Positions 2,734 through 64,000 of a stretch of 64,000 nt of DNA are shown in pieces. Position 1 is the first letter of the stretch; each line of letters opens with the position of its first letter. The notes beneath the pieces are model-generated. The model saw nothing but the letters and a program-made list of their open reading frames with translations, searched no databases and was not told where the DNA came from. A program made the translations under genes and the position numbers. The DNA comes from Trypanosoma brucei (lineage: Eukaryota). The DNA is taken from assembly GCA_000002445.1 (NCBI GenBank), contig CM000208.1, positions 3,040,001 through 3,104,000 on the forward strand, in the 5' to 3' direction.

Positions 2734-5700
2734 TTACTTGGTTACCTTTCGTTTGATGCGCACCATCGCCGTTACTGCTTTGCGCAGTTCATCCGCTTTG
2801 CGGTCCCACACGGATCCCAGCGTACATCCGTTACCATCCACCACTTGCACGGTACTGTTCGGCCCAGCGTCCCTCACGCGATTCACCACACCAACGGAGA
2901 ATCCCGGAATGCCATGAATCGGTTGCGTGTCATACCCCAGTAAGGTCATAGTGATTGGTTTGTTGTTCACCATGGCATCGCGGCATGCTTCGAAGAAGGT
3001 TCCAGCTGCCGCAAAGTCCACTACTGATGCTTCCAATGGAATGAGAAGCCGCTCGAACGCCGTGTTTGCAAAGTCAACAATCTCTTTGCTGTCAAGGCGG
3101 CTCGCGACGGCTGTGTCCGGAACAGAGAATGTCGTTTTAGTGTACAGGAAGTCCTCAGAGGAGTACTGCCCAGTGCCACTTACGGAAGTGGAGCCATCAC
3201 CACCGCACATCTCGGAAGCAACGAGGGCCAAGCAATGAAAGGCTGGCCAAACACTCGGCTTAAAGGGATGGTGCACAATTGAGTGGGACATGTCATAGCC
3301 GTACGTTCCAACGTAGTTGTCGCCCTGCCTGGCCGTAGTGAGCAGGAGCGTGCCACGGGCGCGCAGCGATATTGAATCCACGGCAGCCAAGGCATCGAAA
3401 AGTACGTTCAGTGGGCAGACCCAAGCACGAAGAAACGCCTCGTGGTTTGCGTCACTAAGCGTGACAACAGCGCGCTCTTTGTCGTAGCTCAGAACAATGG
3501 CGTACGGTCCCCCAGAACCTCCATTCCATACCTCTCTATTGGCTTGTATAACAGCGGGGTCGAAGTTCACAATGAGGCAACGTTCCTTGGGGGCCTCTAA
3601 CGCAGAGAGAATTTGGCCAACAAGTGCTTCAGGAGTGGAGTGCTTAACGTCCTTGTCCATGTGTGTCGTGAAGACACTCACCTTGTCCCCCAGATGATTG
3701 TGGGAGTAGTTCCTCGCGACAGTCGCTGCACTTTCCAATGGCAAATGTGCGGACAACATGAAAGAAGTATGGAATCCACTGAGGTTAGCCACAGTTTCCA
3801 CGTTTGCATCGAAGCCGAGAGTATCTAAAGCTTCAGCAAGGATTGTCACAACATAATTCTTTTTCGGATATTCAAAACGAAGGAGTCGCATTGTGGGTGG
3901 AAGTGAGTACCGAGCATCACTCAAAATGGAATCCTCGAACTGTTGGGCGCTGAGTTTGGAAATAGTGTCTGGCGACTTGGCAGCCAATATATAACCGTAC
4001 CCAATCACGGCAGAATACAGCCGGGGAAGTGGCACGTTCCATGTCTTACGGTACTTCTTCACACTGACGTCAGCGAGCCGAACGACCCCCTGCTCTGCAT
4101 CGAAGCCAATAACAATGGCAAAGTGACAAGGTTCGGCACGTTGGTCCACCATGACATTCAATGCAATGTTAACATTAAAGCCAATAAGCATAACACTTTT
4201 GGTTTTCACAACGAGATCAATATGTGCCATGAAAGTGTCATCTGTGATGTTTACTGGTCCATCTGCAGCATCCCCACGACGGTTAATGAGCACAACACCA
4301 AGTGCAACAGCGTCGGCGAGGTTCAACTTCTTAAGAAACACCCTGTACCAGCTAAAGGCCCTGCAAACAGAAACCTTGGTGCTGTTACCAACAATGGTGG
4401 CAATGTCAAGGTTGAGTACCTGGCACAATTTTGTAACGGGAATACCACGCAGTTTACCGCGGTCTAGTGCGCTACCAACGCCACTTTCCCGGTGTTTTCC
4501 TTGGTTCAGAAGAGTGCATGAGACAAGGTGGTGCATTAATGCGAGGCCAACTATGTGTGGTGCGATGGAGGCGTCAACCGCAGTCATTAATAACCCGCCA
4601 CTGAGGGAACCATCGAGCATGCCCAGCGGGAATATGGAAGGTACTTTTTCCATGTGTCGTTCGCTCACAAAGACGCGAACGAATCCACGGGATCGATTGC
4701 AGTATCCGTCCTTCACGCACAACGCATTGTAGAGCGTTTGTAGAGGAACGCCATGCTCCTCAACAACAATACGGCCATCCTCCAACAAAAGTGGCACCCC
4801 GAAACTAACAGAGTGCAGGGCAGGCCTGAAATCAGTAATCAGGGCAAAGGTGCCTTGGTTCTTGGCCGACCAACGTGGTTTTATTGGGTCTGGTAAACCC
4901 TCGCCATCGGGGTTCTCAGTGTAGTTCAGGCGCATCCTTATTTCGTGTTGTTCAATCAAGTAAGGATCAAAGTTTATTATATACATTGGGTTTTCCTCAT
5001 TTTGAGACAGCTCCTTGCGAAACTGGGACAAAGTTCGGATGGTGGCTTGTTCCTCCGCACCCATCCCATCACACGACTCATCTACTGCTTCCGTGTCAAA
5101 TGTAACCACCTCACAGCGAGTCTTGGTCCTCAGCATTGCCGGATGACCTTCTACGAACTCATTCGTCACATCAAATAGTTCAGCGAGTGTAACAGACGGA
5201 AAGGATACGTAGTGCATTGCCAAACGGTTTTGGCGAAGGATGTCTTCGATTGTTATCTTCTCACCGGATACATAGCTGCACGCAAGTGCAATGCTGAGTA
5301 ACCAAGCGCATGGCGCATTGGCCAACTCGTTTACGTCGTTCGAATCAGGTTGTGTTAACATCGGCTTTAAGAATTCCTGCAGTTTTTGCTTCGCGGCCTG
5401 GGCTTTACGGCGGTTGTTCAGAGCATCGGTATGCTCAGGAGATTTAGCAGCAGTTAGCACCACCTTTTTGGAGTGAGCACCGGTAGCGGTGGCGCCGGCC
5501 GCTGTCGATCCCGCAAGTGGCGGAAGAAAGCTGGAGTTGGCTGCGGTGGCGGTTGCACCTGGATCTAAAGTGGGTCGCTGAACGTTGAAGCGAGCCCCTC
5601 GTCCAATCGCCATGGCCGAGGCTGATGGGCTGACTGCAGTTTCGGATGCCAAACGACCCTCACGCCCATCTGCAGTGACACAAGGCGCAAGCTTCTTGAT

Positions 5701-5775
5701 GTCGGAATGCATCAGATCCAGCTTTGCCTGGATTGATTGCAACCTTTCATCCAAAGATTCTGGTTTGGCTCCCAT
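2734..5775 (-). CDS. Large conserved hypothetical protein with about four tandem phytochelatin-synthase-like (papain-fold, C83-like) domains
   Basis: A 1013-codon ORF. The track start at 5835 is GTG, so I used the first ATG at 5775 (MGAKPESL...). The protein contains four repeated blocks. Each block has a motif resembling the PCS catalytic-Cys region (ANAPCAWLLSIALA, and WPAFHCLALVASEM in the last repeat). Each also has a downstream motif resembling the PCS GHFSPIGGY...VARFKYPPHWVPL region (GTFALITDF; CHFAIVIGFDAEQGVVRLADVSVKKYRKTWNVPLPRLYSAV; GPYAIVLSYDKERAVVTLSD). The Cys is kept in repeats 1 and 4 only. Confidence 0.6.
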   Translation of the reverse strand: MGAKPESLDERLQSIQAKLDLMHSDIKKLAPCVTADGREGRLASETAVSPSASAMAIGRGARFNVQRPTLDPGATATAANSSFLPPLAGSTAAGATATGAHSKKVVLTAAKSPEHTDALNNRRKAQAAKQKLQEFLKPMLTQPDSNDVNELANAPCAWLLSIALACSYVSGEKITIEDILRQNRLAMHYVSFPSVTLAELFDVTNEFVEGHPAMLRTKTRCEVVTFDTEAVDESCDGMGAEEQATIRTLSQFRKELSQNEENPMYIINFDPYLIEQHEIRMRLNYTENPDGEGLPDPIKPRWSAKNQGTFALITDFRPALHSVSFGVPLLLEDGRIVVEEHGVPLQTLYNALCVKDGYCNRSRGFVRVFVSERHMEKVPSIFPLGMLDGSLSGGLLMTAVDASIAPHIVGLALMHHLVSCTLLNQGKHRESGVGSALDRGKLRGIPVTKLCQVLNLDIATIVGNSTKVSVCRAFSWYRVFLKKLNLADAVALGVVLINRRGDAADGPVNITDDTFMAHIDLVVKTKSVMLIGFNVNIALNVMVDQRAEPCHFAIVIGFDAEQGVVRLADVSVKKYRKTWNVPLPRLYSAVIGYGYILAAKSPDTISKLSAQQFEDSILSDARYSLPPTMRLLRFEYPKKNYVVTILAEALDTLGFDANVETVANLSGFHTSFMLSAHLPLESAATVARNYSHNHLGDKVSVFTTHMDKDVKHSTPEALVGQILSALEAPKERCLIVNFDPAVIQANREVWNGGSGGPYAIVLSYDKERAVVTLSDANHEAFLRAWVCPLNVLFDALAAVDSISLRARGTLLLTTARQGDNYVGTYGYDMSHSIVHHPFKPSVWPAFHCLALVASEMCGGDGSTSVSGTGQYSSEDFLYTKTTFSVPDTAVASRLDSKEIVDFANTAFERLLIPLEASVVDFAAAGTFFEACRDAMVNNKPITMTLLGYDTQPIHGIPGFSVGVVNRVRDAGPNSTVQVVDGNGCTLGSVWDRKADELRKAVTAMVRIKRKVTK

Positions 5776-6274
5776 TGTAACAAAGCTGTTTTCTGGTGGT
5801 GCTTCGCGGAAAAGATGCCAGAAATAATTCGACACGCAGTTTTAACCAATTGAAAGGAAGAGAGAGGCATTAACACCAGCGGTGTAATATCAGAAAGACA
5901 GAATGACACGGAAGTGTGAACGGCAGTATTACGTGTCCACTACGCACAAAAAAAATTTAGTGAGTGAGACATTAATGACACAATAATTGCAACAATGCAA
6001 TCCCCCCTCTTCACGCACGAGGCCGGATTTCAGCAGTTTCCACATGTTTTCTTGCTTTTACCTCTCCCTCCATTTTTAATAATGAAACTAACTACGGAGA
6101 TGGCCACCTGAACCCACATCACCCTACAATCGTACGAAACACATGATCAGAACCCAGCAATGGTAAACAGACGTATATTTCAGCGGAAAGTACAACATTA
6201 TTCAAGATACCATAAGTCACATTGATGGCGGTTAATAAATTAAAGCCTTCACGGTCGCGACTAACGACGTGAGT

Positions 6275-7285
6275 TTAACTTCTGAATAACTCAATATCAG
6301 CAACGCGCGCAAGGTCCTCATCAAGTCCCACAATTTCGCCGCCGTCCGTCAAATCCGTGCGCAACCCAACCGAACCTGTGCTTGCCTGTTTATACCGACA
6401 GACTCCATGTTGAAGCACAGCATTACCTAGACTGCTAAAGTCGCCACGCCTAATAACCAAGAGCATGCCATCGTGCAGTCTGGCATCAAACATATAAAAG
6501 CCACGTATCACACGTACCCGCATAAAACCTCTTGAAGAATAAAAACGCAACAACGCTTCATCTGATGCCAAGCAATGTAACCAGACTTCCGCCACACCGC
6601 AGCGAAGGTTCGAGTGGCCGGAATCGATCGGTCTGTCAGGGAGTGTTTTGGGGTCCCTTGGAGGGTTATTCAGCTGCTCACTATGGCTTTCTATTCCAAG
6701 ACGCTGCTGCAAAAAACTTGAAACAGCTGTAAAAAAACTTTTCAGCACCGGAGCGAGCGCTTTGCCAAAGGAGAGACCACCATTTCCTGCCCGAATGAGA
6801 GGCGGCACAGGAATATTGAAGAACATGTATGTTAAAAATCGTGTCAGTAAAAGTTCCCCAACACCGCGACGGCGGAGTCTTGGATCCACGGCAAACGACA
6901 TCAAATAGCCCGTCGGTGATGGCTCCAACTGGCCGTCTTCGTACCGTTTATGGCCGAGTTGACCAATACAGAAACCAGCCAGACAGGAGTATACCAAAGG
7001 GGGTTCAACAACCCCAGCTTCCGTAGACAATTCTGTTTCCACTCCACTATGCGTGTCATGGGGATCCATGACGACATCTCTATGAGATACATGCGCAACA
7101 ATAGCCACAGACGATCCTGAGCGCAGCCAATTGTAGTAATCGTCCGGATATTCGACAGGGAAAGATATGGCGTGGAGCGCCTGTATGCTTTCCATGTCGC
7201 TCTCTGCAATTCCCCAGCTAAGATGCACTGTTAATGGTCTTCCCCCATTACGACTCGGGAGTGCAACAAGCTCCACTGCGCTCAT
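6275..7285 (-). CDS. GNAT-family N-acetyltransferase
   Basis: A 336-aa ORF with an ATG start that I verified. An acetyl-CoA-binding motif A (YLMSFAVDPRLRRRGVGELLL, the R/Q-x-x-G-x-G/A pattern) is followed by motif B (VWLHCLASDEALLRFYSSRGFMRV). Confidence 0.7.
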   Translation of the reverse strand: MSAVELVALPSRNGGRPLTVHLSWGIAESDMESIQALHAISFPVEYPDDYYNWLRSGSSVAIVAHVSHRDVVMDPHDTHSGVETELSTEAGVVEPPLVYSCLAGFCIGQLGHKRYEDGQLEPSPTGYLMSFAVDPRLRRRGVGELLLTRFLTYMFFNIPVPPLIRAGNGGLSFGKALAPVLKSFFTAVSSFLQQRLGIESHSEQLNNPPRDPKTLPDRPIDSGHSNLRCGVAEVWLHCLASDEALLRFYSSRGFMRVRVIRGFYMFDARLHDGMLLVIRRGDFSSLGNAVLQHGVCRYKQASTGSVGLRTDLTDGGEIVGLDEDLARVADIELFRS

Positions 7286-55858: not shown

Positions 55859-58800
55859 TTAATTACTTCCTTTGCGTTTTGAAAGCGAATATTGAGGACA
55901 TAAAGAGGGAGAGAAAGTACCGTAAGCACAACACGCCACTCCCGGCCCAGGGATAACAGAAACTATATTCATCAATTGAAAAGTAGATATCAAAGGTTTC
56001 AATGTCCCCCAGAGTCAGAGTAGAAGCAAGCCGTTGCGGGTGTCAACGGCGCTGGTAACGCAAACAAGTAAAAGCGAAAAAATCACGTCCCTATCGCAGT
56101 CACCCTCCCCCCCCCCCCCCGCAAAAAAAAAAAAAACGTCAAGATCGGCCGCGCGTTGAGACAAGGCAAATAAACTAAACATGGGAAAAGAAAAATTTGT
56201 AGAAGCAAATGAAAACGCACCGCACACGAGCGGTGCAGAAGTACAGAGGTAGCTGGTAAAGAAAAGAAGTGACGCCGGAACGCGCGCCGCCATAGGCTAA
56301 GTAACAGCCCCCTCCACACAACCCATCTCGTGGACCGCAACGGCGCCCCGGCTGCAACGACCACGACCAGGCGCACCACGATCGGACACCCCGCCGAGGA
56401 AAGAAAACAAGGGGCCCCTACACAGCCTCGCCGCAGTAATCCGGAAATGCGCAGCAACCAACCGTCGCAGAGAAGGTTCCATTGCCCAACTCCGCCGCTA
56501 GAAGGGGGAAGGGAAAGAAACACGTAACGCCGCGCCAGTTCAGCTCTTTAGAGGGCCCAAACGGTATGGTCAAAGGAAAACCTGCTACGGGGAAGAGATT
56601 GACAGACGGTTGGTAACTGTCTCGACCTGTTCATTTCGGCTGCGTGTTACCCAAAGGGAGGCGGTACATATTCGGGTAACTGCCAGTCGTTATGTGGTTT
56701 CCGAGGTTTGTAGAAGGAGGAGGCCGAAACGGTATCAGCTACGTTACCGATTTGTGGTCGGTGAGCCGCCAATCCTGCGTTTGCTTGTCTTCGTAGGTCG
56801 CCAACATTTTCAACATCGACTTTGACACACCTTGCTCAGCTACGAGTCTGTTGGTGACTGGACTACGCGACCTCGGCGGTTGAAAGCGAAGGTGAACACT
56901 GGGGCGGGTAAATAAAAGAAGGTCAACTCCCGGACGTGGGCAGGCGGGTCGTTAACTTCGGCCGGTTTGTTAGCAGTTGTGGCGCTACTGTTTAAACAAG
57001 TGGAGGGGTGTGAGACGACACCGCGCACCCAACCATGGGAGGAGTACATCGGTGGAAAGCAGACCCAAAGCGCTTACCGACATTGTGAGAAAGCGATGTC
57101 AAGAGAGGGGAACGAGTGACAGTGCCCACAAACTTTTCATCTCTTTCATTGGCTTCAAAAAAAAAAAAACAAAAAAGGGTCCTCTCAGAGTAAAGGGAAA
57201 GACTACGCAATCAGTATGGACCAATATGATAAGATCAACTGTAAGGAAGAAACCCCGACGGAGGCAACCTGATGCCACAACAAACTTCGGCGTGGAAGAC
57301 GGGAATCATTACGGCTCCGAAAGGGTGGAAGGGAAGTGAAGAGGGAAACAGTTTGAGAGTGATTAAGAAGCTACATCATGCCGTTGTGAACCCGTGGGTT
57401 ACACCCCACTCCCGGTGGTGACTTCTTCAGAACGAAAGGAAATAATTGTTTAGTTGTGAACAGGGGAAATTGAGTTAGTCGGTTGTCAAACGTGCGCAGC
57501 AGTGGAAAATGGGTTGTACGGCAAAAAATGAAGACAGTGTTCCAGAGATAACACGGGCAATTCCCCCAAATCACACCTAACAACACTGTCAATGATTCCT
57601 GCTTATTCACCAGGAAACGACGTCAACACCACGAGCAATTCGACACATGGGTCTGATAATGTCCTCAAGGCACTACACTGTATAATAATGGAACGGCTCA
57701 GCAACTAACCTCATGATAAAGATCAAAAAGTGGGAAAGAAGGGCAGCATTTGAACGGCTAAAAATAACAAATAAGGTAAAAGACACAAGGGGAACCACAG
57801 TTGCGACATCTGTGTTGTGGCTTTTTGAAAGAGACAAATTGCACTTTGGAAAGCGACTCCCGTGTGGTTTGATTCAGCCTCTTCACGCCCCTTTGCGTAC
57901 GTATATGAGGAGCTTGGATGCGTTGTGAGAAAGCGGTGCAACTTTGAAGAGTGTGATACGGACGACAACTTATCAGCTACTCGAAAAGCTCGTAATGTCC
58001 ATAACAAAAATAAATCCAGCGTATATTGAGACAGGAACGGTAAACACCCCAATGGAAACGGGAAGGGAAATGGATGCACAAAGGTTAGTGTCTTGTGTTA
58101 GCTTCCGGATTCGCAACGGGGACAACGTCGGCGAGGTAGTAGCGCACAGAATTGCAAAACGTTTAGTGAAGCAGTACGCGTCGTATGAAGGTGGCACCTG
58201 TTATCCAGGATATGATGTACCACGCTTGGTGGATGTGGATTTGTTCGTTACGGTTCACGATTGGACAAGAGGAAGAGGCTTTGGTGGTTGGATCCGAAGG
58301 TATTATAATTTATGAGGGCGGACTCGAATAAATAGCTGGCTCGGGTTTCTTAAAGGTAGTTAAGTCATACACACTAAACACGTGGAAAGGATCCGGAGCC
58401 GCATCTGGTCGTAACAGCATCATCGTCAAAGCGCATGTTATCGAACTTCACCATCTGTACGGCGGGTTGCGTGGCGGTGAAGTAAACACGTAACTGCCAT
58501 GACAGACAAAGCTGGTAACGCCAGAGGTTCCAGCATACCCTTCCCTCATTGTCTGTCTGGGGATGCTGTGAAGAGTGCAACCACTTGCTCCTTAATTTGT
58601 GCTGCTGCATTCATTGGTTATACAATGCCATCGTTGTTAGGTGAGGTTGAAATGTTAACAATGTGATGCGTAGCAATGTGAACAGAAAGTGCCCTTACAT
58701 CGCCGACGAAACTGAAAAGGTTTGGAGTGCACGTCTGATTTCTTTACACCCCAGTACACCGTCAGGTACGTGGTTCACGTTGGAATGGGAAGGGGCGGCG

Positions 58801-60763
58801 AAATGGCGAGGCATTTTTGTAATCTTAACGGACCTTGTACGTTTACTGTCTTCGTATTCGCGAGAATACACAACGTTACTTTACAAGTTATTGCGCGGCA
58901 GAAAGAATGATGTTGAAGCAAAGTGGCGCGGATCGTGCACCCACGAAACGGTGGGGACACGGAACTTTCCAGTTCTACGACGCAGCTTCATGTAAGCGAT
59001 GAGGGAGTAGCTTCATCCCCCTCTAGTAAGTGTGGACCTTCAGGCGATATATTCTTACCTTCACCGACGTTCGGGATGAGGACGGCGGTGTGGACATTCT
59101 GACACGGGTGACCCGGTGGTATTGACGGCTCACAATCAAAAGTTAGGGTTTAGTTGTGCTATGAACAGGATGCACAAAAAATGTGCGGGAAAGGTGGCGT
59201 TTGCCGACTTTCATTTGTACTATAAGTGAGTCTGCTCTGCGAGAGGTGAGTCTATGGGAGCAATGTCCTGTTGTTTCGCGGAGGGCGCCATATTTTTTGC
59301 GCTTGTCATTGTGGACCGATGGTGTCACAGTCACTGCACATATACCCTCTGACTTAACAGCACGGAGAGTCACTTACGTACCGGATTATATGCCACATGT
59401 TTGCCGTGCGGTAGTCGCCTTTACGTCACCTTTTATTTTCATGCTTTGCTTTCCGTTGGCACACCGCTGCTTGCCCCATGGCATATTCTGTGGATTTGTT
59501 GGGAGATGAGACAGGCTTGTGCCCAGACAAACGTACCGTATTTGAAGTCCAACCTTCTATTCAGACAGATAATACTCGCCATCAGCTTACCGAAGTGATG
59601 TTAACTGATGAGTTTCGGTGTAGGGCTGTGTTTTTTATTCAGAGAGTTGAAGTGCAATTTGTGTGTCAGGGGCGCCGTTTTCATACCCTGTACATATCGC
59701 AAAGGTGGGTGGATGGAAATGATTATTTTTTTTCTTTGATGCAAAGGAGCACACTTTGTTCTAGTCGTATCACGCGTAGGTGTGCAGAGGTTACGTTTGA
59801 AGCATATTACCCAGTTCGTAAAGCACGCTGAAGACATTGAAACACACATCACCAGCTATGTTGATTGACACCACCAGTAGACAAAGCTGACCACTGCGCG
59901 TGAACACTTTTTCGCACATGCCAAATTCTTTAACTATAATACCTATGAGGACGCGGTGTGTTTAGCTTAGTGGTAGTTTATGGAAGAGGGGGGCCATGCT
60001 TGTAGGAAATGCTACTTGGTAGTTCGTGTGAAGGCTGTAAAGCTCGTGCAGTTGAGCTGATTGCCAACGGTGTACTGATGCTACGTCAGCGGTGAGTAAA
60101 TACTGTTTTATTCGATACTTCTATGTTTCAAGGGAGTTTCTGCTGGATGGTAGTTTTTCACATTTTTTACTTTCCTTTCCTACACACGAAGTTTACTGTT
60201 GTTGGGAAGCAACTATCACGTGCATCGCCGTGGTTATATAAATGTTGTGTGCATTGGAAGTGGTTGCCCAAACTCCCTCACTACATGAAGGAGGAGGCAT
60301 GCGTCCTTAGTAAACCCCGAAACACTTGCCTGTCGACGTGCTTCGCGTGACGTGAAGAGGGAGTTTATGTCGGTCGTCTGCCCTCTCCCTCGGGGCCCGA
60401 CCTGAAATGATGCTGGGGATGTTTAGTATTTCTTTGCTTCTGTACAGTTTTCTATACGTGTACACCCTTCGTCGCGACGGGCCCCACATGTTTGAGCACA
60501 GCTATTGCAGTCCAGAAAGCCCTGTCGCGTTGCATGACTCTCACTACCCCCTGGCATAAAATACTACCAACAGTGTGTTTTCCTCTCTGTCTTTTAGGGC
60601 ATAGCAGTTTCGAGCCATACAAATCCTTTTAGCTGCCACCGCGCGTTGACGGGGCTACCGCTGCAAGACACTGCAACGACACACATATACAAATATATAT
60701 ATCACAACCTCCTGATCTAGGAAACGGTTCCCTGGTGACTGCAACTGGATAAATCCTTCCGCC
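55859..60763. promoter_or_regulatory. Divergent strand-switch region between the minus-strand and plus-strand PTUs: a candidate RNA polymerase II bidirectional transcription-start region
   Basis: Coding polarity flips here: all the genes to the left are on the minus strand and the adenylate cyclase to the right is on the plus strand. There is no long ORF. The region contains the C14/A14 homopolymer pair and a GC-rich island. Confidence 0.7.
56107..56136. repeat. C14-GC-A14 homopolymer pair (G14 and T14 on the minus strand) at the edge of the strand-switch region
   Basis: The sequence is cccccccccccccc gc aaaaaaaaaaaaaa, about 250 bp upstream of the first minus-strand gene. Confidence 0.9.
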
Positions 60764-63700
60764 ATGAAAGCACCAGCCTTGCTGTTGTTTTTACTGTCAG
60801 CATGTGCCGCATCGCCGCCGACGAGGGAAGCCGGGGGTGTACAAGTAACCGTGACAATTGTGTCTCTGATGTACAGTAAAAACTGGCCTGCTGAGTACAT
60901 CAACGCTGTCAATGCTGGTTTTAACGCATCCCTGGCCGCGCGGAACTGGGTGGTAGCGCCTGGGGTTAATGTTTCGGTAGTTCCACCCCCGTCGTACGAC
61001 ACCCCAGCATATCAGCACCTGGAGAAGTACTTAGAAAATGTAAAGGACGATAACAGCAGTATGGTGGTTGTGTTGGGTCCCATGGGCGAAGAGAGCAGCT
61101 TTGCCTCGTATGATACCCTGAAGAAACACGGTCTTGTCGGATTCGCTCCTATGACTGGGGCTGCGGGTTTTGAGACTTACCTTCCACACCTCTATTTTCT
61201 TCGCCCTGGTTTTACGGGTGAACTCATAGCCCTTATCCGTTATGCCGTGACTTACCTGCGCGTTCTCCGGTTGGGGTTTACCTACCTTGAAGGTATGATG
61301 GGGGGTACTACCACATACGAGAATGCTGTGGACTTTTTGTCACGCATGGGATACACGTTTTGTTGTATTTTCACAGTGCACGGGACAGCCGAAAGGCGGA
61401 CGGTAACAGGTAGGGAGTTCGATGTGGCATGGAACGAGTTTGCCGGGAAACTTCCACAGGCTGTTATTGTTGTTGCTACTGTAAATGATGAAATAAAGAA
61501 TTTTGTCAAGAACCTTGTGGCTGATCCACGCACCGCGGATGCGTACCTGTTGGCTCCCTCACTAATGCAGAAGTCGATCGTGACAGTATGGAAGGAGGCA
61601 TTGGAAGCTGCAAATGCCACTTTTGTCCCTCGTCGCGTAATCCAGACAGGCACCAACCCACTTGCCAACGACACAGACAGTCGTGCCATTAGTCGCTTTC
61701 AAGGTGAGATGCGGGATTATCTTACGGCATATGGGGAATGGGCCGGTGTCGACGACGCAGAGTGCTTCCTCAAGGACGACGCAGAGGGAGAACTGATGGT
61801 TGCTGGTTGGCTCGCTGGAGAGGTGCTATCGCAAGCTCTACGGAGCCATGGATGGATGAACAATCGCACAGCTTTCATGGAGTCGCTCTACGAGCAACGC
61901 CGTTACGTCGTTGACAACATCGTTATTGGTGACTTTGGAGGTAGTTGTGAGGACAATTCTACTGATAGCGGTGCCATCTGCCAGTGCAACCGCGGCGGTA
62001 GGAAGGTATACATGAAGGAGATTGCAGAGGGCTACCGACTAAGACCGCTTGTTGGCGGCTACATCGTACAGTCCCAACTGGAGTGTAATAGTGATCCTGC
62101 AATCCTGCAGCCGCCGCTCAGCGGACTCGCCATCCTCATAAATGATCGCCAGGAGCTTACGAGGGCTGTGAAACAGTTTAAAATTGGCACGTCTGCCGTA
62201 TCTGCAGATGGCGAAGACGATGACGTGGACAGGCTTGTCATTCAGGTATTTGACACAAAGGCGCATACCGCTTTCGACGATCTCAAGGCGCTGCAACAGA
62301 GGAAAATTTTAACTGCTTTGTTCGGTGTCGTAACTGAGTCGTTGTTAGAACTCTCAAACGTGACATTCATTGACCCAATGGTGCCAACGCCTCATTTAAA
62401 CACTTTCAACAGGAATGTGATCCGCCTGTCGCCAACATTGGAGCAGCAGCTTTATGTACATGCGACCTACCTGTCTAGCATCCGTGCTGTTAATGTCCAC
62501 TGTATTGTCAGAAGCAACGAAGCGGCTCGCATCATCGACGTGCTTAGGAAGACGTTGATTACCTTTGGTCTGAATCTCAGTTCCACAAAAGTATTGGAGG
62601 CCAGGACCACGATTAGGGGGAATCTACCGACAAGGGGCAGTGTATTTCTCATTGGGCTCGTCGGCACTGACATTGCGGCAATTGAAGAACACCTCCGCAC
62701 ACACGAGAGGACTCTTATATTTGTCCAGTATTCTGACATCGCGTTGCTATACAATGAGTTTGTGCAAACATTTAACAACACTCATACTGCCGAACGTCTT
62801 GTGTTCGCAACAAGTTTACCGCACTGGGCAGACGCCAACACGACATCGGAGACTGTGCGACGGTTCCAGGACGTTATATCTGATGTGGCGCTACGGACAC
62901 CGCTGTCACTGTTGGGTTTTGCCACTGGCAGGTTGATGCAGAGGAACTTGCAGCGTATGCCCAAGGTGACCCCTGAACTCCTGTCCGACCTCTTCTTCGA
63001 AGAAACAGTGATCACTGTCGACGACATGCGCTATGGACCATTCAGGCACTACGATTGCGTAATCAACGATGTCGTTACCGAGGATAATTGTATAACAAAT
63101 TTTGGTGCGGCGGACATCAGTGTGTGGTCGATGGCGCGTGCGCTACGACCACATGAGCCAGTACTGCAGGAAGCGATGTTTCCGTCGATGAAGTATAACG
63201 TTCCTAATGGTAACGCCCTCACCCCCGCACAACTTGCTGGCGTAATCGGTGGGACCTCGGCAGCCCTGTTCCTCCTTTTGGGGCTTGGCGTGCTATTGTA
63301 CTTCGTCCTTCGCGATGGTCGCGACAACGACAACGCGCCCAAGGAACCAACAGACCCGGTGACGCTCATCTTCACCGATGTCGAGAGTAGCACTGCGCTG
63401 TGGGCTGCTCACCCCGAACTGATGCCGGAGGCCGTCGCAGCTCACCACAGCATGATCCGCTCGCTGATTTCCCGTCACGGATGCTACGAGGTGAAGACGG
63501 TTGGGGATTCGTTCATGATAGCCTGCAAGAGCCCAACAACCGCAGTCAAGCTTGTGCTCGACTTACAGGTGATGTTCATGCAGTACGACTGGGGCTCTTC
63601 TGTGTTCGACGATTCGTACCGCGAGTTTGAGTTGCGTAAGGCGGATGATGTCGACGGTTACGCCCCACCAACCGCGCTCCTTGACAGCGCAACGTACGGG

Positions 63701-64000
63701 CAGTACTGGAACGGGCTGCGAGTGCGAGTTGGTGTGCACACCGGGTTGTGTGATATTAGACATGATGAAGTGACGAAGGGTTACGATTATTACGGGCAGG
63801 TTCCCAACCTTGCTGCGCGGACGGAAAATGTGACGAACGGCGGGCAGGTGCTGCTAACGCACGCGATGTACCTTGCACTCAGCACCGCAGAACGTGAGGA
63901 ATTTGACGTGACCCCATTGGGTGAAGTACCGTTGCGTGGTGTGCCGGAGCCTGTTGTAATGTACCAGCTGAACGCCGTTCCCGGCCGCTCTTTTTCTGCA
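60764..64000 (+). CDS. Receptor-type adenylate cyclase (GRESAG4-like), partial; the 3' end lies beyond the right edge
   Basis: ATG at 60764. It starts with a signal peptide (MKAPALLLFLLSACAAS) and a large extracellular periplasmic-binding-protein-like domain. A single transmembrane segment follows (GVIGGTSAALFLLLGLGVLLYFVL). The class III cyclase catalytic domain has PVTLIFTDVESSTALW...YEVKTVGDSFMIA...RVGVHTG...GYDYYGQVPNLAARTE. The ORF track omits it because it has no stop inside the window. Confidence 0.88.
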   Translation, partial: MKAPALLLFLLSACAASPPTREAGGVQVTVTIVSLMYSKNWPAEYINAVNAGFNASLAARNWVVAPGVNVSVVPPPSYDTPAYQHLEKYLENVKDDNSSMVVVLGPMGEESSFASYDTLKKHGLVGFAPMTGAAGFETYLPHLYFLRPGFTGELIALIRYAVTYLRVLRLGFTYLEGMMGGTTTYENAVDFLSRMGYTFCCIFTVHGTAERRTVTGREFDVAWNEFAGKLPQAVIVVATVNDEIKNFVKNLVADPRTADAYLLAPSLMQKSIVTVWKEALEAANATFVPRRVIQTGTNPLANDTDSRAISRFQGEMRDYLTAYGEWAGVDDAECFLKDDAEGELMVAGWLAGEVLSQALRSHGWMNNRTAFMESLYEQRRYVVDNIVIGDFGGSCEDNSTDSGAICQCNRGGRKVYMKEIAEGYRLRPLVGGYIVQSQLECNSDPAILQPPLSGLAILINDRQELTRAVKQFKIGTSAVSADGEDDDVDRLVIQVFDTKAHTAFDDLKALQQRKILTALFGVVTESLLELSNVTFIDPMVPTPHLNTFNRNVIRLSPTLEQQLYVHATYLSSIRAVNVHCIVRSNEAARIIDVLRKTLITFGLNLSSTKVLEARTTIRGNLPTRGSVFLIGLVGTDIAAIEEHLRTHERTLIFVQYSDIALLYNEFVQTFNNTHTAERLVFATSLPHWADANTTSETVRRFQDVISDVALRTPLSLLGFATGRLMQRNLQRMPKVTPELLSDLFFEETVITVDDMRYGPFRHYDCVINDVVTEDNCITNFGAADISVWSMARALRPHEPVLQEAMFPSMKYNVPNGNALTPAQLAGVIGGTSAALFLLLGLGVLLYFVLRDGRDNDNAPKEPTDPVTLIFTDVESSTALWAAHPELMPEAVAAHHSMIRSLISRHGCYEVKTVGDSFMIACKSPTTAVKLVLDLQVMFMQYDWGSSVFDDSYREFELRKADDVDGYAPPTALLDSATYGQYWNGLRVRVGVHTGLCDIRHDEVTKGYDYYGQVPNLAARTENVTNGGQVLLTHAMYLALSTAEREEFDVTPLGEVPLRGVPEPVVMYQLNAVPGRSFSA

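What the first reader, a model, noticed from the sequence alone, without database searches (positions are those of the whole stretch)
2734..5775. About 1000-aa protein built from four tandem phytochelatin-synthase-like (papain-fold) domains; only two keep the catalytic Cys
Reading the translation directly, a block of about 200 aa recurs four times. Each block has a motif similar to the PCS catalytic-Cys helix (PAYCGLASLSVV in plant PCS; here APCAWLLSIALA and AFHCLALVASEM). Each also has a motif similar to the PCS His region and the following beta strands (GHFSPIGGY...LILDVARFKYPPHWVPL; here CHFAIVIGFDAEQGVVRLADVSVKKYRKTWNVPLPRL, GPYAIVLSYDKERAVVTLSD and GTFALITDF). Canonical PCS enzymes have one such domain. 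A single polypeptide with four of them, and apparent loss of the nucleophile in repeats 2 and 3, is unusual. It could be a glutathione or trypanothione-conjugate peptidase, a transpeptidase, or a pseudoenzyme scaffold. Trypanosomatids are not known to make phytochelatins, so the substrate would be of interest.
Basis: partly seen in the sequence, partly recalled or inferred. Interest (0 to 1): 0.65.

Follow-up and report, generated by a model that had tools for sequence, protein, structure and literature searches.

The report
Four-domain degenerate phytochelatin-synthase-like protein
This Trypanosoma brucei gene encodes a conserved, unstudied 1013-residue protein made of four copies of the phytochelatin-synthase (papain-type) fold, none of which keeps a complete catalytic site, so it is most likely a binding or scaffold protein and not a phytochelatin-making enzyme.

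Summary
The ORF (window 2734-5775, minus strand, 1013 aa) is real. It is identical to T. equiperdum TEOVI_000510100 and to a T. b. gambiense chromosome 10 gene, and by synteny it is Tb927.10.12820.

**Catalytic residues.** The Cys claim is only partly right.
- Block 1 keeps a Cys at the nucleophile position (C156) but lacks the His and Asp.
- Block 2 keeps the His and Asp (H551, D569) but has His407 at or next to the Cys position.
- Blocks 3 and 4 lack both Cys and His.
- C848 in block 4 lies one helix turn past the nucleophile position and is not conserved.

No block has an intact Cys-His-Asp triad.

**Family.** This pattern holds across a family of four-domain proteins in kinetoplastids and diplonemids. 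The family includes a second T. brucei paralogue, and many members begin with MGxGxS. The nearest relatives with an intact triad are two-domain proteins, for example in the red alga Pyropia.

**Verdict.** Best reading: a pseudo-peptidase that binds a ligand or partner. It is a new variant of a known fold family, of moderate interest.

The parts
2734..5775 (-). Complete CDS of 1013 aa plus stop. It is the orthologue of T. equiperdum TEOVI_000510100 and of a T. b. gambiense chr10 gene. Inferred to be Tb927.10.12820.
   Evidence: ORF list and translation. 100% match to P0001. Chromosomal position and neighbours. The flanking genes MCP12 (Tb927.10.12840) and CCT (Tb927.10.12810) are named in a paper.
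5692..5754 (-). N-terminal amphipathic helix, residues 8-28 (LDERLQSIQAKLDLMHSDIKK). It is conserved in orthologues and may form a coiled coil.
   Evidence: DSSP of the model shows a helix at 8-28 with pLDDT about 76. The alignment consensus is E..L..I..KL..MH.DIKK.
5428..5691 (-). Disordered Ser/Ala/Thr/Pro-rich linker, residues 29-116. It is poorly conserved and greatly expanded in Leishmaniinae.
   Evidence: pLDDT is below 50 for residues 29-116. The alignment shows gaps and insertions here. Block identity is 11-43%.
4642..5400 (-). Block 1 (residues 126-378), a PCS-like A-type domain.
- Keeps Cys156 at the nucleophile position and the C-terminal D356...R363-G364-F365 motif.
- The His position is T309 and varies across the family.
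- The Asp strand is replaced by an inserted hairpin.
   Evidence: HHalign gives 98.0%, E 1.5e-13, against the PF05023-positive profile and 97.4% against B3. Pfam gives a partial hit.
5308..5310 (-). Codon of Cys156, the only Cys at a nucleophile position in the protein.
   Evidence: It lies immediately before helix 157-170. It is C in 38 of 44 family members. Codon checked.
3940..4641 (-). Block 2 (residues 379-612), a PCS-like B-type domain and the most conserved block.
- His407 sits at or next to the nucleophile position.
- The following are kept: His416, catalytic His551, Asp569, and K574-Y575...W579, which correspond to AtPCS1 K185-Y186...W190.
   Evidence: HHalign gives 97.5-97.6% against the PCS-like profile. 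Pfam gives a partial hit to profile positions 124-197. Family counts are H407 41/44, H416 36/44, H551 31/44 (Q in 9), D569 44/44 and W579 42/44. Identity to the Bodo-like homologue is 55%.
4555..4557 (-). Codon of His407, at the start of the block 2 helix where PCS has its catalytic Cys. The register is uncertain by 1-2 residues.
   Evidence: The helix runs 406-421. H in 41 of 44 members. Codon checked.
4069..4125 (-). Segment H551...D569 (CHFAIVIGFDAEQGVVRLAD). These are the retained catalytic His and Asp equivalents of block 2.
   Evidence: Aligned to GGGHFS...DVHP of triad-bearing relatives. Codons checked.
3310..3939 (-). Block 3 (residues 613-822), the most PCS-like block by sequence (A-type).
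- No Cys: Y641/V642 occupy that position.
- No His: P757/Y758 occupy that position.
- Asp775 and the D800...R807-G808 motif are kept.
   Evidence: HHalign gives 99.7%, E 2e-26. This block carries the best Pfam stretch, 711-808, and the alignment to the Alr0975 sequence.
2737..3309 (-). Block 4 (residues 823-1013), the most degenerate PCS-like block (B-type).
- Pro844 occupies the nucleophile position.
- There is no His.
- Position 980 is D or E across the family.
- C848 is not at the catalytic position.
   Evidence: HHalign gives 95.2% against the PCS-like profile and 92.2% against B3. The separate AF2 model has pLDDT 80.3. Its nine best Foldseek PDB hits are all Alr0975.

Best explanation
**What it is (shown).**
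- The gene encodes a soluble protein of about 110 kDa.
- It consists of an N-terminal helix, a disordered linker, and four papain-fold domains of the phytochelatin-synthase (MEROPS C83 / PF05023) type.

**How it arose (inferred).** The four domains look like two copies of a two-domain module, A-type followed by B-type. That module survives today, with an intact active site in its A-type domain, in uncharacterised two-domain proteins of red algae and other eukaryotes.

**Catalytic sites (shown).** In the trypanosome protein every canonical Cys-His-Asp site is incomplete.
- Block 1 keeps only the Cys. It also keeps the D...RGF motif, which from memory binds gamma-Glu in PCS.
- Block 2 keeps the His, the Asp and the Lys-Tyr...Trp loop, but has His where the Cys should be.
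- Blocks 3 and 4 keep only the Asp.

**How it most likely works (inferred).**
- It is a pseudo-peptidase. It does not make phytochelatins or cleave glutathione by the PCS ping-pong mechanism.
- It uses the conserved remnants of the substrate clefts, above all the block 1 and block 2 pockets, to bind a partner.
- That partner could be a protein, a peptide, or a gamma-glutamyl thiol.
- The protein probably acts as a scaffold or sensor.

**Family context.** Many family members, including the second T. brucei paralogue, carry an N-terminal MGxGxS myristoylation-type motif, which suggests membrane-associated roles for the family. This orthologue group in Trypanosoma has largely lost that motif.
For: **Architecture and fold.**
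- PF05023 scores above its cut-off, and 16 of 18 orthologues hit it.
- Blocks match each other and the PCS-like profile in HHalign.
- The full-length AF2 model has pLDDT 72.8 and pTM 0.71.
- The B4-only model also hits Alr0975 first.

**Degenerate sites.** Family-wide counts are. The required residues are defined in PMC3855540.

**Constraint despite the lost triads.**
- Blocks are 63-77% identical within Trypanosoma and 36-55% identical to the Bodo-like homologue.
- C156, H407, H416, D569, W579, T644, R805 and Y878 are conserved across paralogues that are only about 24% identical.

**Two-domain ancestry.**
- The C-terminal half of the triad-bearing relatives is itself PCS-like. It matches its own N-domain at 97.9%, B2 at 87.6% and B4 at 71.6%.
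- B1~B3 is the strongest block pair.

**Other.**
- Family distribution and the T. brucei paralogue are shown.
- MGxGxS N-termini are listed.
- No strongly hydrophobic segment was found. The best 19-residue Kyte-Doolittle window scores 1.75 and lies inside a folded domain.
Against: - No experiment or localisation data could be found. The non-catalytic role is inferred only from missing residues.
- The near-invariance of C156 in block 1, and of H407, H416, H551 and D569 in block 2, is what one would expect if some chemistry were retained. That chemistry could be a thiol-based reaction, or a His/His/Asp metal site.
- Papain-like enzymes with substituted nucleophiles can keep residual activity. 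Cys-to-Ser examples are quoted in PMC10318531.
- The exact register at the start of the block 2 and block 4 helices is uncertain by 1-2 residues.
- I could not inspect model coordinates or PAE, so inter-domain geometry is untested.
Confidence: 0.6

Rival explanations
1. It is an active but non-canonical enzyme. There are two versions.
- Block 1 works as a Cys-dependent enzyme, with the general base supplied from a non-homologous position such as the conserved His188.
- Block 2 has become a metal-dependent hydrolase that uses His407, His416, His551 and Asp569 as ligands.

The substrate would be a gamma-glutamyl thiol, such as glutathione, glutathionylspermidine, trypanothione, or one of their conjugates.
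For: - Family-wide conservation is high for C156 (38/44), H188 (32/44), H407 (41/44), H416 (36/44) and D569 (44/44).
- Block 1 retains the D356...R363-G364-F365 motif. From memory of the NsPCS acyl-enzyme structure, this motif holds the gamma-Glu moiety.
- Block 2 retains equivalents of the second-substrate loop residues K185, Y186 and W190. PMC3855540 shows that K185 and Y186 are essential for AtPCS1 activity.
Against: - The canonical His position in block 1 varies freely across the family: A, H, T, G, K, W, M and others.
- H551 is Gln in the whole paralogue-B clade, including the T. brucei paralogue.
- No oxyanion-hole Gln is present in any block.
- No precedent is known to me for a metal-dependent PCS-fold enzyme.
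Confidence: 0.2
2. Blocks 1 and 2 form one composite active site. The Cys of block 1 and the His/Asp of block 2 meet at the inter-domain interface, so the tandem pair makes a single working transpeptidase or peptidase.
For: - What each block keeps is strikingly complementary. Block 1 keeps Cys but not His or Asp. Block 2 keeps His and Asp but not Cys.
- pTM of 0.71 suggests a compact, defined arrangement of domains.
Against: - In the papain fold the Cys helix and the His strand face each other within one domain. Nothing here shows the two clefts meet.
- Coordinates and PAE were not available to me.
- Possession of C156 does not track possession of H551 across the family. Six of the nine members with Gln at position 551 still keep the Cys.
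Confidence: 0.07
3. It is a genuine phytochelatin synthase (glutathione gamma-glutamylcysteinyltransferase), as some database names for orthologues and paralogues state.
For: UniRef names the T. congolense orthologue 'glutathione gamma-glutamylcysteinyltransferase'. It names the paralogues 'Phytochelatin synthase'. These names most likely derive from the PF05023 hit.
Against: - No block has the Cys-His-Asp triad or the oxyanion Gln.
- No Phytochelatin_C domain was found.
- Each block on its own scores below the Pfam cut-off.
- No paper found links trypanosomatids with phytochelatin synthesis.
Confidence: 0.02

Closest known systems
Nostoc sp. PCC 7120 Alr0975 (NsPCS) and the phytochelatin synthase family (MEROPS C83, Pfam PF05023)
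   Same: - It is also the best match for block 4 alone.
- Sequence-profile similarity covers the His-Asp half and the C-terminal D...RGF motif.
   Different: - PCS has one catalytic domain per chain with Cys-His-Asp and an oxyanion-hole Gln. Here there are four domains per chain, and none has a complete triad.
- There is no Cys-rich Phytochelatin_C domain.
- Sequence identity is only 10-18%.
Uncharacterised two-domain PCS-like proteins of 450-570 aa, for example Pyropia yezoensis I4F81_007707 plus many unnamed transcriptome or metagenome proteins (P0111, P0092, P0101 and others)
   Same: - They are the closest triad-bearing relatives of the individual blocks, especially block 3 (HHalign 99.7%, E 2e-26).
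- They share motifs such as GMTLAE(L/I)(Y/F)D and DV.P.KY...W.
- They already have a second, degenerate PCS-like domain that resembles blocks 2 and 4.
   Different: - They have two domains, not four.
- The N-terminal domain has an intact QQxINCC...GGGHFS...DVHP site.
- Their function is also unknown.
Second T. brucei paralogue (P0137, 1155 aa, chromosome 10 at about 1.77 Mb) and its clade in kinetoplastids, including Trypanoplasma, Novymonas and Angomonas
   Same: - Same four-domain architecture.
- Same pattern of retained residues: C156, H407, H416, D569, W579, T644, D775 and P844.
   Different: - Only 24% identical.
- It starts with MGNGQ (MGxGxS in most of the clade), a myristoylation-type motif.
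- The block 2 His551 is Gln.
Degenerate papain-clan domains that bind without cutting. Examples are the C39-like domain of the haemolysin transporter HlyB (PDB 3zua) and the calpain-like proteins of kinetoplastids. The comparison rests on my own knowledge.
   Same: - They are papain-clan folds that have lost catalytic residues but are conserved and act by binding.
- 3zua and other C39 domains appear among the structural matches.
- Kinetoplastid calpain-like proteins likewise form an expanded family with degenerate triads, and many are N-acylated.
   Different: - They belong to different families within the clan (C39 and C2, not C83).
- They are not four-fold tandem arrays.
- No direct evidence here shows that this protein binds a protein substrate.

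Membership tests
Phytochelatin synthase family (Pfam PF05023 / MEROPS C83) | Significant sequence-profile match to PF05023 | tested here: met
   The whole protein scores E 2.2e-7, 30.7 bits, against a gathering cut-off of 24.9. 16 of 18 orthologues hit the family. The score is summed over partial stretches. Single blocks score 11.8-15.5 bits, below the cut-off, and block 4 does not hit.
Phytochelatin synthase family (Pfam PF05023 / MEROPS C83) | Papain-like alpha+beta fold closest to solved PCS | tested here: met
   [not shown]
Phytochelatin synthase family (Pfam PF05023 / MEROPS C83) | Catalytic triad Cys56-His162-Asp180 (AtPCS1 numbering; PMC3855540) within one domain | tested here: not met
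   Residues at the Cys/His/Asp positions are:
- B1: C156 / T309 / none
- B2: H407 / H551 / D569
- B3: Y641-V642 / P757-Y758 / D775
- B4: P844 / F959 / D980

Phytochelatin synthase family (Pfam PF05023 / MEROPS C83) | Oxyanion-hole Gln (AtPCS1 Gln50 / NsPCS Gln64; PMC3855540) | tested here: not met
   The positions aligned to the QQ of triad-bearing relatives are L/A in B1, E635/Y636 in B3 and K839/P840 in B4. The B2 register is uncertain, and no conserved Gln is present.
Phytochelatin synthase family (Pfam PF05023 / MEROPS C83) | Cys-rich C-terminal regulatory domain of eukaryotic PCS (Phytochelatin_C, PF09328) | tested here: not met
   No Pfam hit other than PF05023, even at E up to 10.
Phytochelatin synthase family (Pfam PF05023 / MEROPS C83) | Gamma-glutamylcysteine dipeptidyl transpeptidase or glutathione-deglycinating activity | not testable with these tools
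   This needs an enzyme assay.
Pseudoenzyme (pseudo-peptidase) of the papain clan | Clear homology to an enzyme family, with loss of residues essential for its chemistry | tested here: met
   Homology is shown. Every block is missing at least one triad residue.
Pseudoenzyme (pseudo-peptidase) of the papain clan | Maintained under purifying selection, so not a decaying gene | tested here: met
   - Intact ORFs are found in all trypanosomatids sampled, in Bodo and in a diplonemid.
- Blocks are 63-77% identical within Trypanosoma and 36-55% identical to the Bodo-like homologue.
Pseudoenzyme (pseudo-peptidase) of the papain clan | Demonstrated lack of catalytic activity | not testable with these tools
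   This needs biochemistry.
N-myristoylated protein | N-terminal MG followed by a small residue at position 6 (MGxxxS/T/A/G/C/N consensus, from my own knowledge) | tested here: inconclusive
   - The T. brucei protein starts MGAKPES, with Glu at position 6, which is unfavourable.
- Other Trypanosoma orthologues lack Gly2.
- Many other family members start MGxGxS, and the T. brucei paralogue starts MGNGQIN.

The most novel reading that the evidence does not exclude
The conserved half-sites are not relics. On this reading, block 1 (Cys156 plus the D...RGF pocket) and block 2 (His407, His416, His551, Asp569 and the Lys-Tyr...Trp loop) together form a working thiol-ligand site. That site would bind or process a gamma-glutamyl thiol specific to these organisms, such as glutathionylspermidine or trypanothione. 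The kinetoplastid and diplonemid four-domain family, often N-myristoylated, would then be a previously unrecognised class of membrane-proximal thiol/redox sensors or trypanothione-handling enzymes.
Probability: 0.15. Interest if true: 0.75.

Novelty: new variant of a known kind. Interest (0 to 1): 0.45.

Why it matters
- Trypanosomatid thiol metabolism is a long-standing drug-target area. It is built on trypanothione in place of glutathione.
- This family is conserved and has several paralogues. It derives from a glutathione-processing enzyme, yet I found nothing published on it.
- If the protein is a pseudoenzyme, it adds a clear case of four-fold tandem pseudo-peptidase domains to the papain clan. 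It also flags a misleading database name, since orthologues and paralogues are labelled 'phytochelatin synthase'.
- If the retained Cys and His/His/Asp sites are functional, it would point to unknown thiol or metal chemistry in kinetoplastids.
- Either way, the residue map (C156, H407, H416, H551, D569) gives directly testable mutants.

Tried and rejected
**Searches that found nothing useful.**
- Self-BLAST of the protein found no internal repeats, so sequence-level repetition is not detectable.
- phmmer against PDB sequences gave no hit. The protein is therefore absent from solved trypanosome complexes.
- NCBIfam gave no hit.
- The block 4 profile against PDB sequences gave nothing meaningful.
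- Literature searches found no paper on this protein. I tried phytochelatin synthase with Trypanosoma, Tb927 or Leishmania, 'phytochelatin synthase-like', and Tb927.10.12820 with its neighbours.

**Resources not available.**
- The NsPCS structure paper (PMC1310510) is not held. A search for its gamma-Glu-binding residues found nothing. The statement that the D...RGF motif binds gamma-Glu therefore rests on memory only.
- The AlphaFold-database Foldseek library was unavailable.

**Ideas rejected.**
- C848 as a catalytic Cys, for the reasons given in the observation check.
- A membrane protein: no strongly hydrophobic segment was found.
- A real antisense gene: the plus-strand ORFs 3943-4467 and 4151-4732 lie inside the CDS, and no homologue matched the window outside the CDS.
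- A second family member in the window: none was found.
Full report
**Locus.**
- The finding sits on one long minus-strand ORF. The mechanical ORF runs 2734-5835 from an upstream GTG. The first ATG is at 5775 and gives a 1013-aa product starting MGAKPES.
- That product is 100% identical to T. equiperdum TEOVI_000510100. It is encoded at about 3.0 Mb on T. b. gambiense chromosome 10.
- The neighbours are a GNAT-type acetyltransferase-like gene, the mitochondrial carrier MCP12 (Tb927.10.12840) and, downstream, choline-phosphate cytidylyltransferase (Tb927.10.12810). By gene order the gene is Tb927.10.12820. This is an inference.
- No paper in the library mentions that identifier.

**Observation.**
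- Self-BLAST sees no repeat, but profile methods do.
- I cut the 18-orthologue alignment into blocks B1 (126-378), B2 (379-612), B3 (613-822) and B4 (823-1013). HHalign then links B1~B3 (97.4%, E 1.4e-11), B2~B3 (97.2%, E 3.2e-11) and B3~B4 (92.2%, E 6e-7).
- Pfam PF05023 (Phytochelatin) scores 30.7 bits, above its 24.9-bit cut-off. It hits 16 of 18 orthologues. Single blocks fall below the cut-off, and only the His-Asp half of the profile is matched.

**Wider family.**
- An exhaustive profile search returned 112 representatives. Many are full-length four-domain proteins of 1000-1200 aa.
- Among them are Bodo saltans CUG91861 and a protein of the diplonemid Artemidia motanka.
- A follow-up search showed that one 'distant' clade is a second paralogue present in T. 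brucei itself (P0137, 1155 aa, chromosome 10 at about 1.77 Mb). This paralogue also occurs in T. congolense, Novymonas, Angomonas and Trypanoplasma.
- It is 24% identical to the protein studied here.

**Bridge to PCS.**
- The same search found shorter PF05023-positive proteins of 200-570 aa. Their Pfam E-values run from 1e-7 to 1e-16 over nearly the whole profile.
- These have an intact site: QQxINCC ... GGGHFS ... DVHPxKY. One named member is Pyropia yezoensis I4F81_007707.
- Against a profile of these proteins the four blocks score 98.0% (E 1.5e-13), 97.5% (5.8e-12), 99.7% (2e-26) and 95.2% (2.9e-8) over 167-196 columns.
- The C-terminal half of these proteins is itself a second, degenerate PCS-like domain. 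It matches its own N-domain at 97.9%, B2 at 87.6% and B4 at 71.6%.
- Together with B1~B3 being the best block pair, this suggests the four-domain protein is a duplicated (A-type + B-type) module. This is an inference.

**Structure.**
- AlphaFold2 on the orthologue alignment gives pLDDT 72.8 and pTM 0.71. The model has an N-terminal helix (8-28), a disordered stretch (29-116) and four alpha+beta domains with parallel secondary-structure order.
- Foldseek against the PDB puts nine Alr0975 (Nostoc PCS) chains first, with E from 7e-7 to 1.4e-5 and target TM 0.61-0.68.
- Block 4 had the weakest sequence evidence, so I modelled it alone (pLDDT 80.3, pTM 0.79). Its nine best PDB matches are again Alr0975, with E from 3.7e-5 to 2.7e-4 and TM 0.59-0.65.

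**Catalytic residues.** PCS needs Cys56, His162, Asp180 and the oxyanion Gln50. Arg152, Lys185 and Tyr186 line the second-substrate cavity (AtPCS1 numbering, PMC3855540). I mapped these positions using the HHalign and HMMER alignments, the helix starts in the models and a 44-sequence family alignment.

| Block | Cys position | His position | Asp position | Other retained features |
|---|---|---|---|---|
| B1 | C156, just before helix 157-170 (C in 38/44) | T309, freely variable | absent | D356...R363-G364-F365 |
| B2 | H407, in the first turn of helix 406-421 (H in 41/44; register ±1-2) | H551 (31/44; Gln in the paralogue-B clade) | D569 (44/44) | H416, K574-Y575, W579 |
| B3 | Y641/V642 | P757/Y758 | D775 | D800...R807-G808 |
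| B4 | P844 | F959 | D980 (D or E across the family) | none |

- C848 in B4 is the fifth residue of its helix. It is replaced by A, G, S or T in most family members.
- No block has an oxyanion Gln.
- No domain can therefore run the canonical PCS or papain mechanism.
- All four blocks are nevertheless constrained. They are 63-77% identical within Trypanosoma and 36-55% identical to the Bodo-like homologue, with B2 the highest.

**Interpretation.**
- The best-supported reading is a pseudo-peptidase made of four degenerate PCS-type domains that acts by binding.
- The conserved remnants in blocks 1 and 2 are the part that this reading explains least well. They keep alive two rivals: a non-canonical thiol or metal-dependent activity, and a composite B1/B2 site.
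- I could not test inter-domain geometry, because coordinates and PAE are not exposed.
- The database names 'phytochelatin synthase' and 'glutathione gamma-glutamylcysteinyltransferase' given to the orthologue and paralogues are very probably over-annotations.

**Other features.**
- Many family members begin MGxGxS, a myristoylation-type motif, followed by a conserved helix.
- The T. brucei protein begins MGAKPES, and other Trypanosoma orthologues lack Gly2. Acylation of this orthologue is therefore doubtful.
- No strongly hydrophobic segment is present.
- Leishmaniinae orthologues are 1350-1550 aa, because of an N-terminal extension and acidic inserts in B1 and B4.

**Novelty and score.**
- The Pfam domain is already detectable and annotated automatically.
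- I found no description of the four-domain architecture, the half-site pattern, the paralogy or the link to two-domain triad-bearing relatives.
- I rate it a new variant of a known kind, with moderate interest (0.45).

Noticed in passing
L004:6001-9468 (T. b. gambiense FN554973.1, about 1.77 Mb); not in the window: There is a second T. brucei four-domain PCS-like paralogue (P0137, 1155 aa). It starts MGNGQ, is 24% identical to the window protein, and has Gln in place of the block 2 catalytic His. UniRef calls it 'Phytochelatin synthase'.
   Followed up: partly
N-termini of family members; window 5755-5775 for this protein: Many members of the family start with MGxGxS, a myristoylation-type motif, followed by a conserved HL+KWE helix. 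One starts MGCGGS. The window protein has MGAKPES, and its Trypanosoma orthologues lack Gly2, so the motif seems to have been lost in this orthologue group.
   Followed up: partly
L005-L008 and proteins P0111, P0173: Catalytically intact two-domain PCS-like proteins of about 450-570 aa occur in very GC-rich (about 70%) eukaryotic transcript contigs and in the red alga Pyropia yezoensis (I4F81_007707). They appear uncharacterised and differ from classical plant-type PCS: they have an NCC motif and no Phytochelatin_C domain.
   Followed up: partly
window 60716-64000 (+): An open reading frame runs off the window end (at least 1078 aa, starting MKAPALLLFLLSACAAS). It has two periplasmic-binding-protein-like adenylate-cyclase domains and a cyclase catalytic domain, so it is a receptor-type adenylate cyclase.
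   Followed up: yes
window about 55860-60715: All 21 large ORFs from 2.7 to 55.9 kb are on the minus strand, and the next gene (from about 60.7 kb) is on the plus strand. GC skew changes sign near 56 kb. The roughly 4.8-kb gap has no ORF of 155 aa or more and looks like a divergent strand-switch region. No tRNA or Rfam hit occurs anywhere in the window.
   Followed up: partly
window 3943-4467 (+) and 4151-4732 (+): Two ORFs of 174 and 193 aa lie antisense inside the CDS. No homologue of the family maps there outside the CDS frame. They look like chance ORFs.
   Followed up: no
window 6275-7285 (-): The upstream neighbour (336 aa) has only a weak, partial GNAT acetyltransferase match (PF00583, E 1.8e-7, residues 106-155). 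It has long non-matching flanks.
   Followed up: no
alignment A1, Leishmaniinae orthologues P0008-P0012, P0015, P0017: Leishmania, Leptomonas and Novymonas orthologues carry an N-terminal extension of about 400 aa. They also have acidic or low-complexity inserts inside block 1 (after the His-equivalent strand) and block 4. This makes them 1450-1550 aa, against about 1010 aa in Trypanosoma.
   Followed up: no
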